A stretch of DNA of 64,000 nt from IMG/VR virus record IMGVR_UViG_3300033074_001348, positions 13,313-77,312 of that record; one strand, given 5' to 3'. Of this stretch, positions 24,746 through 32,389 are shown one piece after another. Position 1 is the stretch's first letter; every line of letters begins with the position of its first letter. The translations under genes and the position numbers were made by a program. The notes beneath the pieces were generated by a model that saw only the letters and a list, made by a program, of their open reading frames with translations, was not told the DNA's origin and did not search any database. This stretch comes from a virus (Duplodnaviria > Caudoviricetes).

Positions 24746-24814
24746 TAATATCACGAACCTTTAACTGGTTGCAAATAAGCCTGTTGAAGATAAAGCTTCG
24801 TATATCTGATGTTA
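24746..24814 (+). repeat. 69-bp direct repeat copy 1 (attI-like site heading array A)
   Basis: Identical to 31155-31223; ends in GTTA exactly at the first cassette boundary (G24811). Confidence 0.85.
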
Positions 24815-24823
24815 TACACAACC

Positions 24824-25567
24824 TTAAAAAGACAGCGTTCCAATTGAAAGTTTTTGACTAATTCTATGGATTGCTTTGTCGTAATAAAATGTGTCTTTTT
24901 CAATTCCTGTAAGGTGCAAATTCATTTTATCCAATTTGTTTACCTTATCAACCGCCAACGCTATTGAACCACTACCAAAATGCGTATCAATGATTTTATC
25001 ACCATTGTTAGCATAGTTTTTCAAAAGCCATTCATAAAGCTGTATTGGTTTTTCGTTGGGGTGTATGCGTTCTTGCTTTTCTTTCATATTTTGCTGAAGC
25101 ATTCCGTGCCATTTCCATTTAAACTTTCTTACCGCTGTTTTAAATGAAGTCCAAGCAAGCTCACAATCGGCAAAATCATTGTTCCCGTTTTCTTTATCCC
25201 AAACTATCCAGCAACTACTATCAATAGGTAATTTTGAAATAAAATGATTTGCACCCCAAACAATTTGATTTTTAGAAATTCTGCGTAATTCATTCCAATA
25301 TTCAGATTCAGGAGCTGTTAAATCATTTCCTGAATAAGCCTTATAATCTTTGCTTTTTGCCATTACGCTACGAGTGTGATTTTTTGAGCCATCTTCGCCA
25401 ATTCCATACGGAACATCTACTATTGCTAAATCAAATTGTTTATCCTCAAAATCTCGCATTTTATCCAAGCAATCCGAAAGATATACGTCCAAAAAAGGCT
25501 GTGTATAACATCGGTTTGCCGTAATGGCGGTTGAAGTGCTACTATTGAGCTTTTGTGCTGTATTCAT
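24824..25567 (-). CDS. DNA methyltransferase, N6-A/N4-C beta class (cassette A1)
   Basis: DLAIVDVPYG catalytic motif variant, HPNEKP, and DTHFGSGS SAM motif. Confidence 0.85.
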   Translation of the reverse strand: MNTAQKLNSSTSTAITANRCYTQPFLDVYLSDCLDKMRDFEDKQFDLAIVDVPYGIGEDGSKNHTRSVMAKSKDYKAYSGNDLTAPESEYWNELRRISKNQIVWGANHFISKLPIDSSCWIVWDKENGNNDFADCELAWTSFKTAVRKFKWKWHGMLQQNMKEKQERIHPNEKPIQLYEWLLKNYANNGDKIIDTHFGSGSIALAVDKVNKLDKMNLHLTGIEKDTFYYDKAIHRISQKLSIGTLSF

Positions 25568-25636
25568 CTTTTCTACTTTTATTTAACTTTTGTACTAAAT
25601 TGTCCGCCACTAACGGCAAGCCGTGAACCGTTAGGC
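25503..25636 (+). repeat. attC-like site A1 (134 bp)
   Basis: GTATAAC-arm ggtttgccgtaatggcgg ... ccgccactaacggcaagcc-GTTAGGC. Confidence 0.8.
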
Positions 25637-25645
25637 GTAATGCCA

Positions 25646-26269
25646 TTAGCGTATCCATTCAATAGTTGGTTTGCCGACATAATCCTTGTCCCAAACATAC
25701 CAAGCATAAGCAATCATACCGCTATTCTTCATTTTTACCCCACCTTTGTATAAAGTAACTCGTTTGCTAAATTGGTAAACAGTTTTTAGAGGAAATTCCT
25801 TGTCCTGAAACATCTCATATCTGCTCTCACTTTCCAACCAAACAGTTTTTAAAAACATAGCAATCTTCTTTCTACCTTGCTTTTTTGCTTTCAATACAAA
25901 GTCAAGTGCTAATTTGTAAGGTGGGTTTGTAACTATGTTATCAGCAACTAAATCACTTTGCAAAAAATCAAGTTGTTCACCATATCCTCTATTTATCAAG
26001 TCGGTGCTAATAACTTCAAATCCTTTGTTTTTAAAAACTTCGCTTATATCTCCTTCGCCACAAGCACATTCCCAAATATTTCCGCTAAAAACTTCTCGTT
26101 TCAAAAGTTCTTCTACTGCATAAGGTGGTGTGGGGTAAAAATCCTCCGCTTCACGTTCTCCATTATTTCTGCTCGAACCAACTATTGATAGAGCTTTCGT
26201 GGAAGGCACTACGCCTAACACGGGTTTGGCAAAATTGCCGTTTTCGTTTTCAAATAAACTTTCTGTCAT
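25646..26269 (-). CDS. Putative adenine DNA methyltransferase (cassette A2)
   Basis: WECACGEG SAM motif and TNPPY catalytic motif. Confidence 0.8.
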   Translation of the reverse strand: MTESLFENENGNFAKPVLGVVPSTKALSIVGSSRNNGEREAEDFYPTPPYAVEELLKREVFSGNIWECACGEGDISEVFKNKGFEVISTDLINRGYGEQLDFLQSDLVADNIVTNPPYKLALDFVLKAKKQGRKKIAMFLKTVWLESESRYEMFQDKEFPLKTVYQFSKRVTLYKGGVKMKNSGMIAYAWYVWDKDYVGKPTIEWIR

Positions 26270-26338
26270 AATATCATCTTTTGTTTTTCAATTTAACTTT
26301 TGTGTTCGGCAACTTCGCCAAGCCCGATACCGTTAGCG
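26213..26338 (+). repeat. attC-like site A2 (126 bp)
   Basis: GCCTAAC-cgggtttggcaaaattgccg ... cggcaacttcgccaagcccg-GTTAGCG. Confidence 0.8.
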
Positions 26339-26356
26339 GTAATGCCAACAGACACC

Positions 26357-26857
26357 CTAAAATGGCAATCCATCGGACGGACTTTTATTGTCATCATAAT
26401 TTATTTTAGGCAACCTATCAGGGTTATCAAAAATATTTCCATCTACCTGCATATCACTACCGAAATAATCAATCATTGGAACTAAACTGCTATGGTTTTT
26501 GTAGTAAGAATTATCAATGCACCAACATCCAGTATCTTTATTGTAAACAACAGGATAATAACCAACAATTTTATTTCCTTCTTCGTCCGTTTCTTCATCT
26601 CTTAAAAAATCGCCTTCATAAATTAAGTTGCCAGCCCTATCTGAAACCATTGTGCAAATTGATATTCCAGTAGTATAGCTATCTACTAAAATATGGTCGC
26701 CAGTTCCAAGTTCTTCATTATCTCTTACTATGAAGTTTTGGTTTACGCCTCTATCGCAATTATTGTATAAGTCGCCAAAAACCCATAATCCGTTTGACTT
26801 TGCTCTGTAATGTGTATTTATCATTTGTTTAAATTTAATCATTTTAACAAGGCACAT
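26357..26857 (-). CDS. YopX-like protein (cassette A3)
   Basis: RAKSNGLWVFGDL...IYEGDFL...GNIFDNPD pattern of the YopX family. Confidence 0.7.
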   Translation of the reverse strand: MCLVKMIKFKQMINTHYRAKSNGLWVFGDLYNNCDRGVNQNFIVRDNEELGTGDHILVDSYTTGISICTMVSDRAGNLIYEGDFLRDEETDEEGNKIVGYYPVVYNKDTGCWCIDNSYYKNHSSLVPMIDYFGSDMQVDGNIFDNPDRLPKINYDDNKSPSDGLPF

Positions 26858-26859
26858 AC

Positions 26860-26990
26860 CGCTAACATAGTGTTGCCAAAATGGGGGCAGAAGTGCATTT
26901 AATGAACATTTGTACTGTGTTCAGCAGTAGTGCTTTTAATGGGTTTTTGTGCTATAAATCCCCCACTTCGGCAACACTCGACCGTTATGA
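26860..26990 (+). repeat. attC-like site A3 (131 bp)
   Basis: CGCTAAC-agtgttgccaaaatgggg ... ccccacttcggcaacact-GTTATGA. Confidence 0.8.
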
Positions 26991-27203
26991 GAAATGCTCA
27001 GACTGAACTTCCTCAATCAAGTAAAACTTCTCCCACATACTTTTTGCCCACTCTTCGGCTTGGTGTCTATGTTGAAACACCGCTATAATTTTATTACTCC
27101 CAATATCCAAACGTTCTGCATCTGGAATGACTGCAAAAGCACTTCTCATAACAGCCGTTTGCTGCAATGGCGGGTTCTGTGGTAAATTTGATGTTTCTTG
27201 CAT
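26985..27203 (-). CDS. Hypothetical protein (cassette A4)
   Basis: Starts in the loop of site A4; the stop TAA is the complement of the GTTA core at 26984. Confidence 0.6.
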   Translation of the reverse strand: MQETSNLPQNPPLQQTAVMRSAFAVIPDAERLDIGSNKIIAVFQHRHQAEEWAKSMWEKFYLIEEVQSEHFS

Positions 27204-27277
27204 TTTATTAAATTTTGTGGTTAAACGAAAGTCAGTGCTTGTAATCCGCCACTGGCAGCAATGCTTTTACGTTATGA
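27146..27277 (+). repeat. attC-like site A4 (132 bp)
   Basis: TCATAAC-ttgctgcaatggcgg ... ccgccactggcagcaa-GTTATGA. Confidence 0.8.
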
Positions 27278-27308
27278 GAAATTTTAAAAACCTTTCCCCC
27301 GCACCGTT

Positions 27309-27692
27309 CTAATCATCATCTTGCGTTGACAAAGAAAATGTTTCACCATCTTCAATATTCATAATTTTGACACCGCAAGAACCGTATTCAGCAATCCACA
27401 TTGGGGTATTTTCATCCATATAAAAATCACCGCCTTTGTATCCCGTAAAAGTTTGTCCTAAACATTCATTTTTTAGTTGTTCAACCAAACTTGCAACGGT
27501 TCTTGTTCCGCTTCCTTTTTCAAGTGCTAAATCTGAATAATATCCACGATATGAATGTGGTTCACATACGTTTTCAATTTCTTTGTCTTGTGGTAGTTTT
27601 TCAAGTTCTGAAATAAATCTACCAAGTGTCATTTGTGATAAAGAACGTTCTGCTCTCCATCCTTTGCTTAATTCATTAAATAATTCTTGCAT
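27309..27692 (-). CDS. Hypothetical protein (cassette A5)
   Basis: ORF track begins at GTG 27749; the ATG at 27692 (MQELF) has an A-rich leader and is the likelier start. Confidence 0.6.
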   Translation of the reverse strand: MQELFNELSKGWRAERSLSQMTLGRFISELEKLPQDKEIENVCEPHSYRGYYSDLALEKGSGTRTVASLVEQLKNECLGQTFTGYKGGDFYMDENTPMWIAEYGSCGVKIMNIEDGETFSLSTQDDD

Positions 27693-27740
27693 AATATTTT
27701 GTTTTTTAAATGCCCACCCTAAAAGGTTTTTAAAACTATC

Positions 27741-27834
27741 CCATAACACGGGTTTGGCAAAATGCCGCAGGACAGTTAGTGCTAAATTTCAAGTTTCAAG
27801 TAGCGGCACTTCGCAAAGCCCGAAACCGTTATGT
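27741..27834 (+). repeat. attC-like site A5 (94 bp)
   Basis: CCATAAC-cgggtttggcaaaatgccgc ... gcggcacttcgcaaagcccg-GTTATGT. Confidence 0.8.
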
Positions 27835-27846
27835 GAGATTGCTAAA

Positions 27847-28065
27847 TTATCGTTTATAATAATGTTTTCTAACACCTAAACCTTCTGATTTTAAATGCTT
27901 AAAATTTAATCTTTCTTTTAAGTTATCAAATTGTCTTGAGGTAATGCTGTGTTTTTTAATATCATTTGAATTTCTTAATTCATAAATAGTTCTTTTATTA
28001 TATTGTATCTGTACTAAAACATCATTATCTTCTAATAATTTTTCTAATTCTTTTATTGTCATCAC
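27847..28065 (-). CDS. Hypothetical protein (cassette A6)
   Basis: ORF fills the cassette body. Confidence 0.55.
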   Translation of the reverse strand: MMTIKELEKLLEDNDVLVQIQYNKRTIYELRNSNDIKKHSITSRQFDNLKERLNFKHLKSEGLGVRKHYYKR

Positions 28066-28091
28066 ATTTTGTTTTAAAAACCCACAACCTC

Positions 28092-28224
28092 ACATAACAA
28101 GTGTTTGGCAAAAAAGCGGGTTCGGTTATTAATTTAATGTTTGTTTTATATTTGAATGTTTAGTAATTAATCGGAAATTCCGTTTTTTCTTTCCGCTTCT
28201 TCGCCAAGCACTCGGACGTTACCT
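28092..28224 (+). repeat. attC-like site A6 (133 bp)
   Basis: ACATAAC-agtgtttggcaaaaaagcgg ... ccgcttcttcgccaagcact-GTTACCT. Confidence 0.8.
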
Positions 28225-28596
28225 GCTACCTTTCAGACGCTCAATTTCGGAAAGCAGACTATCAACGATTAACAGGCTTTTTTCAACCCACTCAACAGGC
28301 ACATCGTCCTCTAAAAATTTCTTATGGGTTTCAGTATAGTGGTCGTGGCTAATTAAACCAAGTGAACAAACCAGCCCTTTGCTATCAGGTGCAGTTAATG
28401 CCCAATGCTTCAAACTAAATTCCCTGCCAGTTCTTGAATTGACATAGGGCAATTCATAGCATTTATGCCACTTCCAACTATCAGGTAATTGATTTCTGAG
28501 TTTCATAATTTCCTCTACCGATAAGGCAGCAGGTAACACGGGTTTGGCAAAATCGGGGCTTCCGGCTTCATTTGAAATTATTTCTTTCTCTTTCAT
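28219..28596 (-). CDS. Hypothetical protein (cassette A7)
   Basis: The stop overlaps the GTTA core; the N-terminus reads through the half site (FAKPVL). Confidence 0.6.
   Translation of the reverse strand: MKEKEIISNEAGSPDFAKPVLPAALSVEEIMKLRNQLPDSWKWHKCYELPYVNSRTGREFSLKHWALTAPDSKGLVCSLGLISHDHYTETHKKFLEDDVPVEWVEKSLLIVDSLLSEIERLKGSR
28531..28558 (+). repeat. Half attC-like site A7 (left arm only)
   Basis: AGGTAAC-cgggtttggcaaaatcgggg, with no matching right arm or GTT core seen downstream. Confidence 0.65.
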
Positions 28597-28607
28597 TGGT
28601 GAGGTTA

Positions 28608-28868
28608 TTATCTTGAATGATACGGCGACATATAAGGATATTTGTAAGTTATATAAGTATTAAAATCACAAGGCATGACACCAATAAACTGCGTAGGTTG
28701 AGAATCTTCATACTTACGCCTTTTATCAATAATTGATGCTATTTTTGAATTAACACCCATTAAATCGCCATCGTAAAATCGAACTAAAATATAGGGATTA
28801 GCAGCACACGCTTTCCTTAATTGACCTACTGTTAAAGTTTTCATCTCATTTATTTTAAACAACCCCAA
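28608..28868 (-). CDS. Hypothetical protein
   Basis: ORF; the real start is probably the internal MKTL. Confidence 0.5.
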   Translation of the reverse strand: MGLFKINEMKTLTVGQLRKACAANPYILVRFYDGDLMGVNSKIASIIDKRRKYEDSQPTQFIGVMPCDFNTYITYKYPYMSPYHSR

Positions 28869-28893
28869 AGCCAGAACGATGGGGGTGGGTTAG

Positions 28894-29169
28894 TTAGTAA
28901 TTTATTACAATTTCAGTTTCGGTAACTTCTTTTATTTTAGGTCGGGCGTTCCTTGCTTCAATTACACAAGGAACTAAAACCATCTCTTCATACCAAACAT
29001 CATCGTTTTTATTCATATTAAATCCCTTGTATCTATTGTCAGCACCAAACAAAGTAATATATTTTCCGTCATATTCTAAACGGTAATCACCTGCGTAATG
29101 CGGTAATATTGGTAGTCTTACTTCTTTCATAATTTTAGTATAAATAACAAACCCCCAAGCCAAAGACAA
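28894..29169 (-). CDS. Hypothetical protein
   Basis: ORF; the real start is probably MKEVRLP at 29130. Confidence 0.5.
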   Translation of the reverse strand: MSLAWGFVIYTKIMKEVRLPILPHYAGDYRLEYDGKYITLFGADNRYKGFNMNKNDDVWYEEMVLVPCVIEARNARPKIKEVTETEIVINY

Positions 29170-29183
29170 GAGGGCTTGTCGGG

Positions 29184-29603
29184 TTAGTCTTCGTTAAAAA
29201 AATCTTCTATATTAGGATTGTTATTCCAGTTTTCGATCTTACCGTTTTCATCAATTTTAACAACGATATAATCCCCGTAAGACTCTCGATATAAATCCAA
29301 TATATTGGGAACATAACCGTCTTTTGTAAGAACGGTATTACCTTCTGAATCCAATAAGTGGTAAATCCCATCATCGCAAACTTTGTAATGAACATCAGCA
29401 GTGACACCTTTCTTCCAATTTGTAATAATTCCAGAATCAATATCAATATTTAATTTCCATCGATCCATTTCTTTGCATGGGATTAAATCGCCATGTAAAT
29501 CATCGACTCCATTAATTGAGCCGTCTTCCCAGTAGCGTACACCTGCATCCACTAACAAGGTTTTAATTTCGACTTCCTTTTCGATTTTGATTTTTGCTTT
29601 CAT
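29184..29603 (-). CDS. Conserved phage hypothetical protein (139 aa)
   Basis: Globular acidic ORF (GVRYWEDG, HYKVCDDG) downstream of a promoter. Confidence 0.6.
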   Translation of the reverse strand: MKAKIKIEKEVEIKTLLVDAGVRYWEDGSINGVDDLHGDLIPCKEMDRWKLNIDIDSGIITNWKKGVTADVHYKVCDDGIYHLLDSEGNTVLTKDGYVPNILDLYRESYGDYIVVKIDENGKIENWNNNPNIEDFFNED

Positions 29604-29621
29604 AGTAAATGTATAAACAAC

Positions 29622-29656
29622 GAACCCCTCTAAGCCGGGAAGACAGAGAGGGGTTC
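29622..29656 (-). terminator. Hairpin/terminator-like element, one of three related copies (also about 28858-28893 and 29146-29186)
   Basis: Perfect 10-bp stem GAACCCCTCT/AGAGGGGTTC followed by GTTGTTT on the minus strand. Confidence 0.5.
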
Positions 29657-29719
29657 AGTATGTGAATTAGGCTGATCGCCTGAGATTCCAATTTGGTGCA
29701 TCTTCCCGGATTGCAGGGG

Positions 29720-29757
29720 CAAATATACAAACAATTGTATAAGAAACAATACATTTG
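29720..29757. promoter_or_regulatory. Divergent promoter pair (TATATTTG minus at 29720-29727; TACATTTG plus at 29750-29757)
   Basis: Two TAnnTTTG boxes between divergently transcribed genes. Confidence 0.6.
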
Positions 29758-29771
29758 TAAAAAAAAATAAC

Positions 29772-31157
29772 ATGAAACTTAAAATCCTCGCAGCATCCTT
29801 TATTATCGGCTTGTCGGTTGTAACTTATAATGCAGTAAACTACGACCCCGTTCCATCCATTATAGAAGCACTCAGGGAAGGCAAGTCCGTAACGCTCGAC
29901 TCTGGGGTGGTTTACAATTTTACGGGCTATAAGAACCTCCCAGTAACATCGGAATTTAACTTGAATGGGGCAACTATTAAAGCCGATTCGATGCTCCAAG
30001 CCGAATTTAATGACAACCAATACTTATTTTTATTGGATGGCGGCTACATTCATTCTGGAGCAATTATCGGCGCATCAGGCAAGGTGTACAATGCTAAGGC
30101 GGGGTATTTTGGGGCTATTCAGGTAATGACGGGTGGTAAAATAAGGTCGGTAAACTTTAAGAATTGCGACAAATGGGCTATTCGGGTCTTTGGTGATCGA
30201 TGGTCACATAATGACACAACCTTTATTACATCATGCGTTTTCGATTCAATACCTCGTGACGGATCGGGATATGGTACATGGAATCAGCATGGTGTGGTTA
30301 TAGTCGATTCCTGTAAATTCAATTTCCTGCGTCATGCTTTTGATTGTGGTAGTGAAGGTAACTTAACGGTAATTCAAAACTGCGAGTTTCGTAATTGCTT
30401 TTACATTCCAATTCATCAGCATCGGTATGTAGGTGATTCGGTCGGGGTTGGATTGACGGTGCGTAATTGTAAGTTTTACGATACCTACATGCCCCTTGAT
30501 ATTGGATTGCCGTTTAAAGGCATGAACAGAATTGATAGCAACTATTTTGCCGGCAACTATATTGGTCGCATGGGTCGTGATACGATACCCATTGGCACAA
30601 ACTATATGAACGGTAAAGGCATGATATCTGCTCCTGAAATTATTGGAAGAAATAGCTATAAGGTGGGCGAGAAAATGTCACTAAAGATTGACAAGACTGG
30701 TTTTTGGAATAACGGTGTAACGAACAGGCAGACGACAACTACATTCAATTATCCAATGGTAAAAGTCTATAGCGTTCACACGGGTGGCATTGCTGACACC
30801 ATGACCGTTATTTGCTCTGATACGGGAATCTATACGTCCATGCGGGTTTTAGCAACCTGCGATATTGAATTTTGGAGTGGCGATAAAGCGGTTGGAGTGG
30901 TGAAAAAAGGAAAGGCGTATGACTATAAATTTTACTACTTCAAGGCGGATGTCAAGATCAAAATTAAAGGCAATCTTATAGGTGTAGATCGGGCGACATT
31001 CAACGTGGCAGACGGTTATAGGGCGTTACGGGTTCGTACGAATGTCGGGGTGCTGCATCTTGATAATCTATGCTACAACGGATGGTATGACACCTATGAG
31101 TTTGGACTTAAGACGAAGGTCAAGCAAGTGGGTGAGTGGGTGGAGGTCGGGAAATAA
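29772..31157 (+). CDS. Secreted parallel beta-helix (pectin-lyase-like) protein (461 aa)
   Basis: Signal peptide MKLKILAASFIIGLSVVTYNA; repeats such as VNFKNC, ITSCVF, VDSCKF, IQNCEF and VRNCKF. Confidence 0.7.
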   Translation: MKLKILAASFIIGLSVVTYNAVNYDPVPSIIEALREGKSVTLDSGVVYNFTGYKNLPVTSEFNLNGATIKADSMLQAEFNDNQYLFLLDGGYIHSGAIIGASGKVYNAKAGYFGAIQVMTGGKIRSVNFKNCDKWAIRVFGDRWSHNDTTFITSCVFDSIPRDGSGYGTWNQHGVVIVDSCKFNFLRHAFDCGSEGNLTVIQNCEFRNCFYIPIHQHRYVGDSVGVGLTVRNCKFYDTYMPLDIGLPFKGMNRIDSNYFAGNYIGRMGRDTIPIGTNYMNGKGMISAPEIIGRNSYKVGEKMSLKIDKTGFWNNGVTNRQTTTTFNYPMVKVYSVHTGGIADTMTVICSDTGIYTSMRVLATCDIEFWSGDKAVGVVKKGKAYDYKFYYFKADVKIKIKGNLIGVDRATFNVADGYRALRVRTNVGVLHLDNLCYNGWYDTYEFGLKTKVKQVGEWVEVGK

Positions 31158-31223
31158 TATCACGAACCTTTAACTGGTTGCAAATAAGCCTGTTGAAGAT
31201 AAAGCTTCGTATATCTGATGTTA
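31155..31223 (+). repeat. 69-bp direct repeat copy 2 (attI-like site heading array B)
   Basis: Identical to 24746-24814; ends at the GTTA core (G31220). Confidence 0.85.
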
Positions 31224-31232
31224 GCCGCAAGC

Positions 31233-31481
31233 CTAAGCGACATCGTAACTAATAGTTAGGTTTGACATTGCCTCAATTGTAAAAAGCAACTGACCTGCCA
31301 CATCATAACCATTGTAAACTGTTATCGTAAGGTCGTTATGATACCCTTTGCCGATAGTCTTTTCTTCTTCTTTAATTTCGTGTATCTTATCGCCAAATGC
31401 AGCATATTGGTACTTGTCGTTTACGGCAAAGTAAGTTGAGCCTTCGCCAGTTCCTTTTTCAATTGATTTTATTCGTTTCAT
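31233..31481 (-). CDS. Hypothetical protein (cassette B1)
   Basis: ORF fills the cassette body. Confidence 0.6.
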   Translation of the reverse strand: MKRIKSIEKGTGEGSTYFAVNDKYQYAAFGDKIHEIKEEEKTIGKGYHNDLTITVYNGYDVAGQLLFTIEAMSNLTISYDVA

Positions 31482-31509
31482 TTTTATTTGTGTTGTGAGA
31501 AAGGCCAGC

Positions 31510-31603
31510 GGCTAACAGCGGTTTTGCGTCAGGCGGCAGACAGTTGGTGCAAACTTGAAACATCCTATAAGCCGCCCGAACGCAAAGCCGCAAAACGTTA
31601 TCG
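31510..31603 (+). repeat. attC-like site B1 (94 bp)
   Basis: GGCTAAC-gcggttttgcgtcaggcggc ... gccgcccgaacgcaaagccgc-GTTATCG. Confidence 0.8.
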
Positions 31604-31933
31604 GCTATTTAGAAAATCCCAAAGTTCACCAGCATTTGACATTGGAATATTTTTACCATTATCTGTAACTTTTAAACGATAGTTTTCTTGTCCAAAATCT
31701 AATTCCCAACAGAAATACTCAATCCAACTTTGACCCATTGGACAAAGTGCAGTATCATTCATTGCGACTTGCAAAACTTCTAATAAAGCATTTTGCAAGT
31801 AATGATTTTTAGGTAATAGATTAGCTGTAAAACTTTCGGGAAACGCTTTGCCTAAATTTTCAGAAACAGAAATATCATATTTAATTTGTTCCTGTATTGC
31901 TTCAATTGATTTTATAAAAAGTTGTTTATCCAT
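31598..31933 (-). CDS. Hypothetical protein (cassette B2, gene 2)
   Basis: The stop overlaps the GTTA core at 31597; contains WIEYFCWELDFG. Confidence 0.6.
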   Translation of the reverse strand: MDKQLFIKSIEAIQEQIKYDISVSENLGKAFPESFTANLLPKNHYLQNALLEVLQVAMNDTALCPMGQSWIEYFCWELDFGQENYRLKVTDNGKNIPMSNAGELWDFLNSR

Positions 31934-32177
31934 TTTTATCTTCTTTTAAGTGGTTATATTGACCAGTAGCGTATTGGTGCAAGTTAGTTTCGTTGTATAG
32001 GCTACAAATACTTGACAATGCTTCTAACTCATCATTATTATTTTCAATCCATTCATCAATACTTTCTTCCTCATCAAAAGCATCTTTAACAGCAGCCTTT
32101 ACACCTTTTCTGACAAAGTTTTTTATTGCTCTTAAATCCGATTTTGTTAATGTTACATTTACATATTCTAATTCCAT
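31926..32177 (-). CDS. Hypothetical acidic protein (cassette B2, gene 1)
   Basis: Overlaps the next gene by 8 nt inside the same cassette. Confidence 0.55.
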   Translation of the reverse strand: MELEYVNVTLTKSDLRAIKNFVRKGVKAAVKDAFDEEESIDEWIENNNDELEALSSICSLYNETNLHQYATGQYNHLKEDKNG

Positions 32178-32219
32178 ATTTTGACATTTTAATTTTAAAG
32201 TTTACGACTTAAAAACAGC

Positions 32220-32350
32220 CGATAACAAGGGTTTGAACGCAAGTGGGGCAGATGTGATACTATCAACATCAGTGGTTCATTCATCATTTGTACTACTATC
32301 AACATTAGTGCTACAAATCCCCACCTGCGTCAAGCCCAAAAACGTTAAGT
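32220..32350 (+). repeat. attC-like site B2 (131 bp)
   Basis: CGATAAC-gggtttgaacgcaagtgggg ... ccccacctgcgtcaagccc-GTTAAGT. Confidence 0.8.
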
Positions 32351-32389
32351 GCAATAAAATTTTTAATAATTATTTTTCCCACCGCACAG

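What the first reader, a model, noticed from the sequence alone, without database searches (positions are those of the whole stretch)
24811..32226. Each cassette's two ends are complementary, with a conserved A/C mismatch at position 11
Seen: the 13-15 nt starting at each GTT are the reverse complement of the ...TAAC at the far end of the same cassette; outside the GTTA core these sequences largely differ between cassettes. Pairs: A1 GTTATACACAACC/GGCTGTGTATAAC; A2 GTTAGGCGTAATGCC/GGCACTACGCCTAAC; A4 GTTATGAGAAATGCT/AGCACTTCTCATAAC; A6 GTTATGTGAGATTG/CAACCTCACATAAC; A7 GTTACCTGCTACC/GGCAGCAGGTAAC; B2 GTTATCGGCTATTT/AAACAGCCGATAAC. In all six the only mismatch is A11 opposite C. B1 also has it (plus a mismatch at 10), and A3 and A5 show it with a 1-nt bulge. 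On the minus strand this is a T-G wobble, as are the AAAA/CTTC arm mismatches. Inference: cassettes exist as circles whose full hairpin folds on the minus (bottom) strand, and the mismatch is a recombinase recognition determinant extending beyond the 7-bp canonical R box.
Basis: partly seen in the sequence, partly recalled or inferred. Interest (0 to 1): 0.85.

Follow-up and report, generated by a model that had tools for sequence, protein, structure and literature searches.

The report
Cassette ends form wobble-marked recombination hairpin
The matching sequences at the two ends of each small phage gene are the two halves of a folded-DNA recombination site of an integron-like gene-swapping system of Bacteroidota and their phages, and one fixed imperfect base pair in that site is kept across more than a hundred unrelated cassettes, which makes it a clear target for experiments.

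Summary
In all nine cassettes the bases after GTTA pair with the bases before the far TAAC of the same cassette: 9.1 of 11 Watson-Crick pairs at positions 5-15, against 3.8 for non-self pairs. Seven cassettes have an ungapped A/C at position 11. A3 and A5 have it with a 1-nt bulge.

The same hairpin family occurs in over 120 viral and over 120 Bacteroidota genome contigs. Among 140 distinct cassettes, positions 5-9 and 12-15 are 81-99% paired with all four pair types. Position 11 is A/C in 91%, with A invariant on the GTTA arm. Pairing stops at position 16.

Circularised sites fold 8 kcal/mol better than array sites. The minus (coding) strand is the more stable in 97% of cassettes.

The window's phage has no tyrosine recombinase. 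In relatives, arrays end beside a small Xer-like recombinase that lacks the integron-specific insert.

Circles and protein recognition of the wobble remain inferred. In a small control of about 7 class 1 cassettes, pairing mostly stops at 7-9 bp and no position has a fixed mismatch. I found no published description of this family. This scan noted the same system, and the position-11 G:T, before on other DNA.

The parts
24746..24814 (+). attI-like docking sequence, copy 1. It ends in the GTTA that starts cassette A1.
   Evidence: Direct repeat D2 with 31155-31223. Recombinase-proximal array heads in relatives share a GTATA-N6-GTTA-like ending.
24811..25633 (-). Cassette A1 (N6/N4 DNA methyltransferase, ORF 24824-25567 on the - strand). 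Start arm 24811-24825, end arm 25495-25509, hairpin interior 25506-25633.
   Evidence: Arms pair 10 of 11 with A/C at position 11. Pfam PF01555. The homologous block in L178 starts exactly at 24811.
25630..26335 (-). Cassette A2 (207-aa ORF). Start arm 25630-25644, end arm 26205-26219, hairpin interior 26216-26335.
   Evidence: Arms pair 10 of 11 with A/C at position 11. A 94% identical block in L018 has a different downstream neighbour.
26332..26987 (-). Cassette A3 (YopX-like ORF). Start arm 26332-26346, end arm 26851-26866 (1-nt bulge), hairpin interior 26863-26987.
   Evidence: The homologous block in L089 starts at the GTTA.
26984..27274 (-). Cassette A4 (72-aa ORF). Start arm 26984-26998, end arm 27138-27152, hairpin interior 27149-27274.
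   Evidence: Arms pair 10 of 11 with A/C at position 11. Inverted repeat I1.
27271..27831 (-). Cassette A5 (146-aa ORF). Start arm 27271-27285, end arm 27732-27747 (bulged), hairpin interior 27744-27831.
   Evidence: The same end arm and hairpin occur in at least 10 other contigs with different downstream cassettes.
27828..28221 (-). Cassette A6 (72-aa ORF). Start arm 27828-27842, end arm 28084-28098, hairpin interior 28095-28221.
   Evidence: Arms pair 9 of 11 with A/C at position 11.
28218..28600 (-). Cassette A7 (125-aa ORF). Start arm 28218-28232, end arm 28523-28537. Only the TAAC-side half of its hairpin is present (from 28534).
   Evidence: Arms pair 10 of 11 with A/C at position 11. 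Half site.
31155..31223 (+). attI-like docking sequence, copy 2, heading array B.
   Evidence: Direct repeat D2.
31220..31600 (-). Cassette B1 (82-aa ORF). Start arm 31220-31234, end arm 31502-31516, hairpin interior 31513-31600.
   Evidence: Arms pair 9 of 11, with A/A at position 10 and A/C at position 11.
31597..32347 (-). Cassette B2 (two ORFs of 111 and 83 aa). Start arm 31597-31611, end arm 32212-32226, hairpin interior 32223-32347.
   Evidence: Arms pair 9 of 11 with A/C at position 11.
32344..32360 (+). Start arm of a further unit (B3) that fits the arm consensus but has no matching TAAC end.

Best explanation
Each gene in the two arrays is a mobile cassette of an integron-like system that is common in Bacteroidota chromosomes and their phages.

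The site. The 15 nt after each GTTA and the 15 nt before the far TAAC are the two strands of the outer (R) arm of one attC-like recombination hairpin. They lie side by side only when the cassette is a circle. In the array, each hairpin carries the R-arm strand of its neighbour. On the minus strand, which is also the coding strand, the full site reads as follows:
- a 15-bp outer stem with a T.G wobble at position 11;
- the TAAC/GTTA core, where strands are exchanged;
- a G.T wobble next to the core;
- a 4-nt bulge;
- a 21-bp inner stem with two more G.T wobbles and one C.A mismatch;
- a 20-90-nt loop that usually holds the gene's start codon.

The enzyme. A tyrosine recombinase of the Xer type most likely binds the two stems as the two arms of a core site. 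It would exchange one strand at the core, as IntI does on attC and XerCD on the folded CTX-phage site. Relatives encode such a recombinase at the end of the array. This phage does not, so the enzyme would have to act in trans from the host or a co-infecting element.

The wobble. The position-11 wobble is kept by selection as a geometric or base-specific mark of the correct strand and register. It lies 11 bp from the core wobble, and an inner-stem wobble lies 11 bp on the other side with the dyad-related orientation. This fits two monomers each meeting the same feature.

Shown: the pairing, its covariation, the conservation of the mismatch, the strand bias in folding, the junction position, and the link with the recombinase in relatives.

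Inferred: circles, single-strand recombination, and protein recognition of the wobble.
For: Pairing in the window is far above chance.

Family-wide covariation over 140 cassettes with 72 distinct arm sequences:
- positions 5-9 are 97-99% paired and positions 12-15 are 81-97% paired, with all four pair types;
- position 11 is A/C in 127 of 140, and A is invariant on the GTTA arm;
- there is no pairing from position 16.
Single-arm profiles agree: A11 in 86% of 155 start arms and C11 in 77% of 142 end arms.

Folding with DNA parameters (window sites):
- circularised site, minus strand -27.8 against plus strand -23.5 kcal/mol;
- minus strand better in 97% of 143 cassettes (p about 1e-24);
- circle against array on the minus strand, -8.0 kcal/mol;
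- correcting position 11 would stabilise both strands by 3-4 kcal/mol, yet it is not corrected in nature.

The inner stem has further conserved A.C positions of the same sense, at i1, i12 and i15.

Mobility and junction:
- the same hairpin is followed by different cassettes, and divergence begins right at GTTA;
- homologues of A1, A2 and A3 in other contigs begin or end at the GTTA boundaries.

Enzyme:
- about 20 of 246 motif-anchored loci hold a Xer-like recombinase within a few kb, at the array end;
- recombinase-anchored look-ups find hairpin sites of the cassette orientation upstream of the gene in 3 of 4 contigs. L250, read in full, holds cassettes, and the last one again has G.T at position 11;
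- the catalytic R-K-H-R-H-Y residues are invariant.

A related attC from Polaribacter phage P12002L was recombined by IntI1, with recombinants from the bottom strand only (PMC9892861).
Against: - No tyrosine recombinase is encoded in this complete 77-kb phage, nor in 11 of 12 complete related viral records.
- In the array the outer stem is mostly unpaired beyond the 4-bp core (2-8 of 11), so how excision substrates are recognised is open.
- One conserved inner-stem position favours the opposite strand (T.G on +).
- Position 11 explains little of the computed strand asymmetry.
- DNA nearest-neighbour energies for mismatches are approximate.
- The minus strand is also the mRNA strand, so a wobble bias alone cannot separate DNA folding from RNA folding.
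Confidence: 0.72

Rival explanations
1. The site is a recombination hairpin, but the position-11 wobble is not read by the protein. It is one of several G.T / A.C positions whose only role is to make the bottom strand fold and the top strand fail. This is thermodynamic strand choice, like the nucleotide skew described for attC sites.
For: Four of the five conserved non-Watson-Crick positions are G.T on the minus strand and A.C on the plus strand. The minus strand is more stable in 97% of cassettes. PMC6393395 reports that nucleotide skew stabilises attC bottom strands.
Against: - Correcting position 11 changes the computed asymmetry only from -4.4 to -3.6 kcal/mol and would stabilise the reactive strand by about 3 kcal/mol.
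- The orientation is fixed: A/C 127, C/A 0, although the inverse wobble would give the same asymmetry.
- The A on the GTTA arm is invariant in 140 of 140.
Confidence: 0.2
2. The pairing acts in RNA. Because the genes lie on the minus strand, the arms and hairpins are in the mRNA. G.U pairs there would form panhandles and 5' stem-loops that set processing, stability or translation of each gene.
For: The strand with G.T is the sense strand. Start codons lie in the hairpin loops. A wobble bias is typical of RNA structure.
Against: - It does not explain the invariant TAAC/GTTA core.
- It does not explain the exact swap of neighbours at GTTA.
- It does not explain the arrays ending at a tyrosine recombinase gene.
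- It does not explain why a related site was recombined by IntI1 (PMC9892861).
- An RNA role could exist beside the DNA role.
Confidence: 0.06
3. The mismatch is a frozen accident. All arms descend from one ancestral arm that happened to carry A and C, with no function of its own.
For: The arms share a loose consensus around the position (GCAAT on the GTTA arm), so some shared ancestry or shared constraint exists.
Against: The neighbouring positions have turned over through all four Watson-Crick pairs in 72 distinct arm types, while position 11 stayed A/C in 62 of them and A in all. It also persists across recombinase lineages only 37-52% identical.
Confidence: 0.03

Closest known systems
Integron gene cassettes and attC sites (IntI / attI / attC), including clusters of attC sites without an integrase (CALINs) reported in phages (PMC9892861)
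   Same: - Single-gene units are separated by imperfect hairpin sites with AAC...GTT cores.
- The crossover is at G|TT.
- The first bases of a cassette complement the bases before its own far core, so the full site exists only in the circle.
- The strand that is bottom by site geometry folds better.
- A shared docking sequence heads each array.
- In relatives a tyrosine recombinase gene sits at the array head.
   Different: - The paired outer arm is 15 bp with a fixed A/C (G.T) at position 11, not a 7-bp R box. In a small control of about 7 class 1 cassettes, pairing mostly stopped at 7-9 bp with no fixed mismatch.
- There are no single extrahelical bases. Instead there is a 4-nt bulge beside the core plus wobble positions.
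- The genes lie on the folding strand and start inside the hairpin loop, so each cassette is site-then-gene rather than gene-then-site.
- The recombinase in relatives lacks the IntI-specific insert and scores below the IntI model cut-off.
- Position 5 is T in 57% of arms, which does not fit GTTRRRY.
Xer recombinases acting on folded single-stranded sites (XerCD with the CTX-phage attP hairpin; archaeal XerA/dif)
   Same: The nearest solved structures of the associated recombinase are XerA proteins (4a8e, 5hxy). By established knowledge of CTX-phage integration, a Xer-type enzyme can use a folded single strand with mismatched central bases as a substrate.
   Different: No dif-like 28-bp site is involved. 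The sites bound arrays of exchangeable cassettes rather than a whole phage genome. The arms are cassette-specific and covary.
Promoter-early stem-loop cassettes of T4-type phages
   Same: Small phage genes are bracketed by repeated stem-loops, and modules are shuffled between phages (my recollection of the literature, not tested here).
   Different: Those are thought to shuffle by homologous recombination between repeats. They have no cassette-specific complementary ends, no TAAC/GTTA core and no linked tyrosine recombinase.

Membership tests
Integron (IntI/attI/attC) | An integron integrase: a tyrosine recombinase with the IntI-specific additional domain | tested here: not met
   PF00589 is absent from the 77-kb genome, and tblastn with the relatives' recombinases finds nothing in it. 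The relatives' recombinases score 133-155 bits on TIGR02249 against a cut-off of 265. The hit splits in two and skips about profile positions 180-238. The best model is the XerA-like NF040815, also below its cut-off.
Integron (IntI/attI/attC) | attC: an imperfect inverted repeat with conserved AAC and GTT triplets at its ends, folding as a hairpin | tested here: met
   TAAC...GTTA sites of 88-128 nt with a 21-bp inner stem in the window and in 273 family sites.
Integron (IntI/attI/attC) | Crossover at G|TT, so that each cassette's first bases complement the inverse core at its own far end | tested here: met
   Own-end pairing of 9.1 of 11 against 3.8. Divergence between shared and unshared neighbours begins at GTTA. 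Homology blocks end at GTTA.
Integron (IntI/attI/attC) | R' core consensus GTTRRRY, with a 7-bp R box | tested here: not met
   Position 5 is T in 57% of 155 arms. The arm consensus is GTTAKNNGCAAT, and pairing runs to position 15.
Integron (IntI/attI/attC) | Extrahelical bases in the L box that set strand choice | tested here: not met
   The inner stem aligns without single-base gaps. The only unpaired bases are a 4-nt bulge next to the core. The irregularities are fixed A.C / T.G positions.
Integron (IntI/attI/attC) | Bottom strand folds better than top strand | tested here: met
   Mean -4.4 kcal/mol in favour of the minus strand, in 97% of 143 circularised sites.
Integron (IntI/attI/attC) | Cassette is a promoterless ORF on the top strand followed by its attC | tested here: not met
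   All cassette ORFs lie on the minus (bottom) strand. Most start inside the hairpin loop.
CALIN (cluster of attC sites lacking an integrase) | Two or more attC sites close together and no integrase nearby, as called by IntegronFinder/HattCI models | not testable with these tools
   The arrangement fits: 6 and 2 full sites with no recombinase. The attC covariance models of those programs are not available here. A related Polaribacter phage array was called a CALIN in PMC9892861.
Xer/dif-type site-specific recombination | Xer-family recombinase with the full catalytic set, acting on a site with two about 11-bp arms and a short central region | tested here: inconclusive
   The relatives' recombinases keep R, K, H, R, H and Y and are nearest to XerA structures. 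The hairpin offers two stems of 15 and 21 bp around a core with a bulge. Binding and cleavage were not tested.

The most novel reading that the evidence does not exclude
In this Bacteroidota and phage cassette system a Xer-like recombinase without the IntI insert chooses strand and register by a wobble code. G.T pairs are placed one helical turn apart: at position 11 of the outer arm, next to the core, and 11 bp into the inner arm, with dyad-related orientation. Together with a 4-nt bulge they replace the extrahelical bases of classical attC sites. This would be an independent solution to single-strand site recognition.
Probability: 0.35. Interest if true: 0.85.

Novelty: new variant of a known kind. 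Interest (0 to 1): 0.7.

Why it matters
Integrons are thought to be nearly absent from Bacteroidota (PMC9024848). They are defined by an integrase with a special domain that reads flipped-out bases.

Here the same logic appears with a different enzyme type, a mirror-image gene arrangement and a differently built site. The shared logic is circular cassettes, a folded single-strand site and a docking site. The system is shared by bacteria and many of their phages, where it carries DNA methyltransferases and other small accessory genes.

The 15-bp covarying arm with one invariant wobble gives an exact, cheap experimental handle of one or two point mutations on how such an enzyme recognises folded DNA and picks the strand. 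It also gives a sharp signature for finding these cassettes in metagenomes, where standard integron finders would miss most of them.

Cultured Flavobacterium phages (Muminvirus and relatives) carry the same sites, so the tests are feasible.

Tried and rejected
- The attI-like 22-mer of this phage has no exact match in viral contigs. The docking sequence is lineage-specific.
- One window hairpin gave no blastn match in GenBank phages. A commoner family member did.
- My first script for class 1 cassette boundaries printed nothing. The second mis-set some boundaries, for example the first unit of L257. Only about 7 class 1 cassettes are usable, so the canonical control is small.
- I compared the inner-arm and outer-arm sequences by eye for shared sequence beyond a GCAA-like motif. 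The registers differ by one base, so I do not claim sequence symmetry, only positional symmetry of the wobbles.
- I considered coding constraint as the cause of A11/C11 and rejected it. The arms lie in unrelated genes, in different reading frames, and at opposite gene ends.
- I considered that the hairpin interior travels with the gene on its other side, with crossover at TAAC. I rejected this because start codons lie in the loop on the GTTA-distal side, and homology blocks run from GTTA into the following hairpin.
Full report
**What is in the window.**
Between 24746 and 32360 lie two arrays of small genes, all on the minus strand. On the + strand each unit begins with GTTA and ends with TAAC. 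After the TAAC comes an 88-128-nt hairpin-forming stretch that runs to the next GTTA. Both arrays are headed by the same 69-nt sequence, at 24746-24814 and 31155-31223. The record is a complete 77,312-bp virus genome, and the window is its bases 13313-77312. Cassette A1 is an N6/N4 DNA methyltransferase and A3 is YopX-like. The other cassettes have no Pfam family.

- For all nine cassettes the best partner of the 20 nt after GTTA is the stretch ending in the far TAAC of the same cassette.
- At positions 5-15, counted from the G of GTTA, own ends form 7-10 Watson-Crick pairs of 11 (mean 9.1). Non-self combinations form 3.8 on average, with a maximum of 8. No permutation of 100,000 reached the observed total.
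- Position 11 is A on the GTTA arm opposite C on the TAAC arm in seven cassettes without gaps. In A3 and A5 the same holds after a 1-nt bulge. B1 adds A/A at position 10.
- In the array, a hairpin's own two flanks (the end arm of one cassette and the start arm of the next) pair only 2-8 of 11.

**It is a large family.**
- The 19-mer that begins three of the window's hairpins is present in more than 120 IMG/VR contigs and more than 120 Bacteroidota genome contigs. These include Flavobacterium, Algoriphagus, Chitinophaga, Saprospiraceae and Cytophagales.
- It also occurs in cultured Flavobacterium phages of the Muminvirus, filifjonk and tooticki groups, at the start of annotated methyltransferase genes.
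- From these loci I collected 273 distinct hairpins and 140 distinct cassettes with both ends, from 116 loci. Of these, 98 arm pairs are seen in viral contigs and 45 in bacterial contigs.
- Positions 5-9 are 97-99% Watson-Crick and positions 12-15 are 81-97%, each with all four pair types. This is the covariation expected of a real helix.
- Position 10 is paired in 72% and is A/A in 24%.
- Position 11 is A/C in 127 of 140, and its GTTA-arm base is A in all 140.
- From position 16 on there is no pairing.
- Counting each distinct arm sequence once (72 types), 62 have A/C at position 11.
- Arms taken singly show the same: A11 in 86% of 155 start arms and C11 in 77% of 142 end arms. The loose consensus is GTTAKNNGCAAT and ACTGCNNMTAAC.

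**The rest of the site.**
Aligned across the 273 hairpins, the inner stem is 21 bp. It has a 4-nt bulge on the + strand's GTTA-side arm, directly beside the core. It has four further fixed irregular positions:
- A.C next to the core (90%);
- T.G at the sixth pair (82%);
- A.C at the twelfth pair (65%);
- A.C at the fifteenth pair (76%).

On the minus strand these become three G.T wobbles and one C.A mismatch. Position 11 of the outer arm, the wobble beside the core and the twelfth inner pair are each 11 base pairs apart. In the outer arm the T lies on the 5' arm of the minus strand, and in the inner arm it lies on the 3' arm. That is the orientation a two-fold symmetric protein dimer would meet. 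This symmetry is my reading of the table, not a tested property.

**Folding.**
With DNA parameters, the eight window sites rebuilt as circular junctions sum to -222 kcal/mol on the minus strand and -202 on the plus strand. As they stand in the array they sum to -163 and -151. The minus strand is the more stable in 7 of 8.

Over 143 family cassettes:
- the circular site averages -27.8 (minus) against -23.5 (plus) kcal/mol;
- the minus strand is the more stable in 97% (Wilcoxon p about 1e-24);
- circle against array on the minus strand differs by -8.0 kcal/mol;
- replacing A11 by G in silico stabilises both strands (by 4.0 and 3.2 kcal/mol) and shifts the asymmetry only from -4.4 to -3.6.

The wobble is therefore kept at a cost to the favoured strand and is not the main source of the strand bias. 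Together with its fixed orientation (A/C 127, C/A 0), this points to a specific role rather than a merely thermodynamic one.

**Cassettes move, and the junction is at GTTA.**
- The same end arm and hairpin, for example that of A5, is followed by many different cassettes in other contigs.
- Among 529 pairs of sites with the same upstream hairpin and unrelated downstream DNA, the first difference lies at -2 (a polymorphic base of the bulge) or at +5, just past GTTA.
- Homologues of A1, A2 and A3 in L178, L018 and L089 begin or end at the GTTA boundaries and run into the following hairpin.
- The hairpin interior therefore travels with the gene whose start codon it holds, and the crossover lies at the GTTA end. 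By integron convention this makes the + strand the top strand and the minus strand the bottom strand. The genes are on the bottom strand, the reverse of classical cassettes.

**The enzyme.**
- The window's phage has no tyrosine recombinase. Only 1 of 12 complete related viral records has one.
- About 20 of the 246 motif-anchored loci hold a 265-294-aa tyrosine recombinase within a few kb.
- In phage contigs the last cassette ends in TAAC about 45-60 nt before the recombinase start, in the same direction (L123; L250).
- In bacterial contigs the recombinase is followed after about 100 nt by a GTATA-N6-GTTA-like head and the first cassette.
- I also started from recombinase homologues found in the protein database. 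In three of four contigs a hairpin site of the cassette orientation lies upstream of the gene. L250, read in full, holds cassettes there. Its last cassette again has G opposite T at position 11 on the coding strand, although that enzyme is only about 50% identical to the L123 enzyme.
- The proteins keep the catalytic R, K, H, R, H and Y.
- Their best models are XerA-like, XerC and XerD. The integron-integrase model is hit below its cut-off and in two pieces that skip the IntI-specific region. The nearest solved structures are XerA proteins.

**Comparison with what is known.**
That a cassette's first bases complement the inverse core at its far end is the textbook mark of integron cassettes, with G|TTRRRY against RYYYAAC. 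Canonical strand choice rests on extrahelical bases, the unpaired central spacer and nucleotide skew (PMC6393395).

As a control I read about seven class 1 cassettes from plasmids: aadA1, aadA22, dfrA1, blaIMP-1, aac(6')-IIa, arr-3 and a small unnamed unit. Pairing stops after 7-9 bp in five of them. It runs on with scattered mismatches in the aadA cassettes (to 12) and in aac(6')-IIa (to 17). No position has a fixed mismatch. The sample is small, and some boundaries found by my script were wrong.

In the literature held here, CALINs were reported in phages, including Polaribacter phage P12002L. One of its attC sites was recombined by IntI1 when the bottom strand was delivered and gave no recombinants from the top strand (PMC9892861). 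Its methyltransferase cassettes have the same inverted layout, and the one cassette I could pair has A/A at positions 10-11. IntegronFinder 2.0 found almost no integrons in Bacteroidetes (PMC9024848). Four literature searches gave no description of this family, its recombinase or the position-11 pair. That is not proof that none exists.

This scan itself has noted the system in at least 42 other genomes, and the G:T at position 11 at least twice. I reached the same reading from my own tests before seeing those notes.

**Verdict.**
The complementary ends are the outer arm of an attC-like folded recombination site of an integron-like, Xer-associated cassette system. The arm is 15 bp long and carries an invariant wobble. 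That cassettes circularise, that the minus strand is the substrate, and that the wobble is read by the recombinase are well-motivated inferences that point mutations can now test directly.

Noticed in passing
window 28534-28600: The hairpin of the last cassette of array A (A7) has only its TAAC-side arm and loop, with the start codon. The GTTA-side arm is missing, so the array ends in a half site. Similar half sites end arrays in L019, L040, L059, L071 and L079.
   Followed up: partly
window 26984-27285: A4 and A5 share the first 12 nt of their start arms. A5's own ends pair poorly at positions 7-12 but then pair perfectly for another 14 nt (27282-27295 with 27722-27735). This suggests a past exchange inside the arm, or a longer arm in this cassette type.
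   Followed up: partly
window 25535-25605, 26240-26300 and other hairpin loops: The start codon and the first 15-20 codons of most cassette genes are encoded by the loop and one arm of the hairpin. Different cassettes use different reading frames over the same conserved arm, so many unrelated proteins begin with hairpin-encoded peptides.
   Followed up: partly
window 28608-29603: Three minus-strand ORFs lie between array A and the second docking repeat. They have no TAAC/GTTA hairpins between them. Each is followed by a short GC-rich inverted repeat that looks like a terminator.
   Followed up: no
L247 (Flavobacterium phage mumin6-1, MN812220, 1-8298 reverse complement): A cultured phage carries the same hairpin at the start of an annotated DNA methyltransferase gene, in a run of four methyltransferase genes and many small ORFs. 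It is a ready experimental system.
   Followed up: partly
L250:7480-7990: In a subfamily with a recombinase about 50% identical to the L123 enzyme, the hairpin lacks the 4-nt bulge. The spacer is nearly continuous, with two G.T pairs. The position-11 wobble and the third-pair C.A mismatch of the inner stem are kept.
   Followed up: no
L253:13360-14480 (plasmid R100, aadA1 cassette): In the classical aadA1 cassette the ends pair at 10 of the first 12 positions, beyond the 7-bp core. Some canonical cassettes therefore also have extended arms, but with no fixed mismatch position in the few I read.
   Followed up: partly
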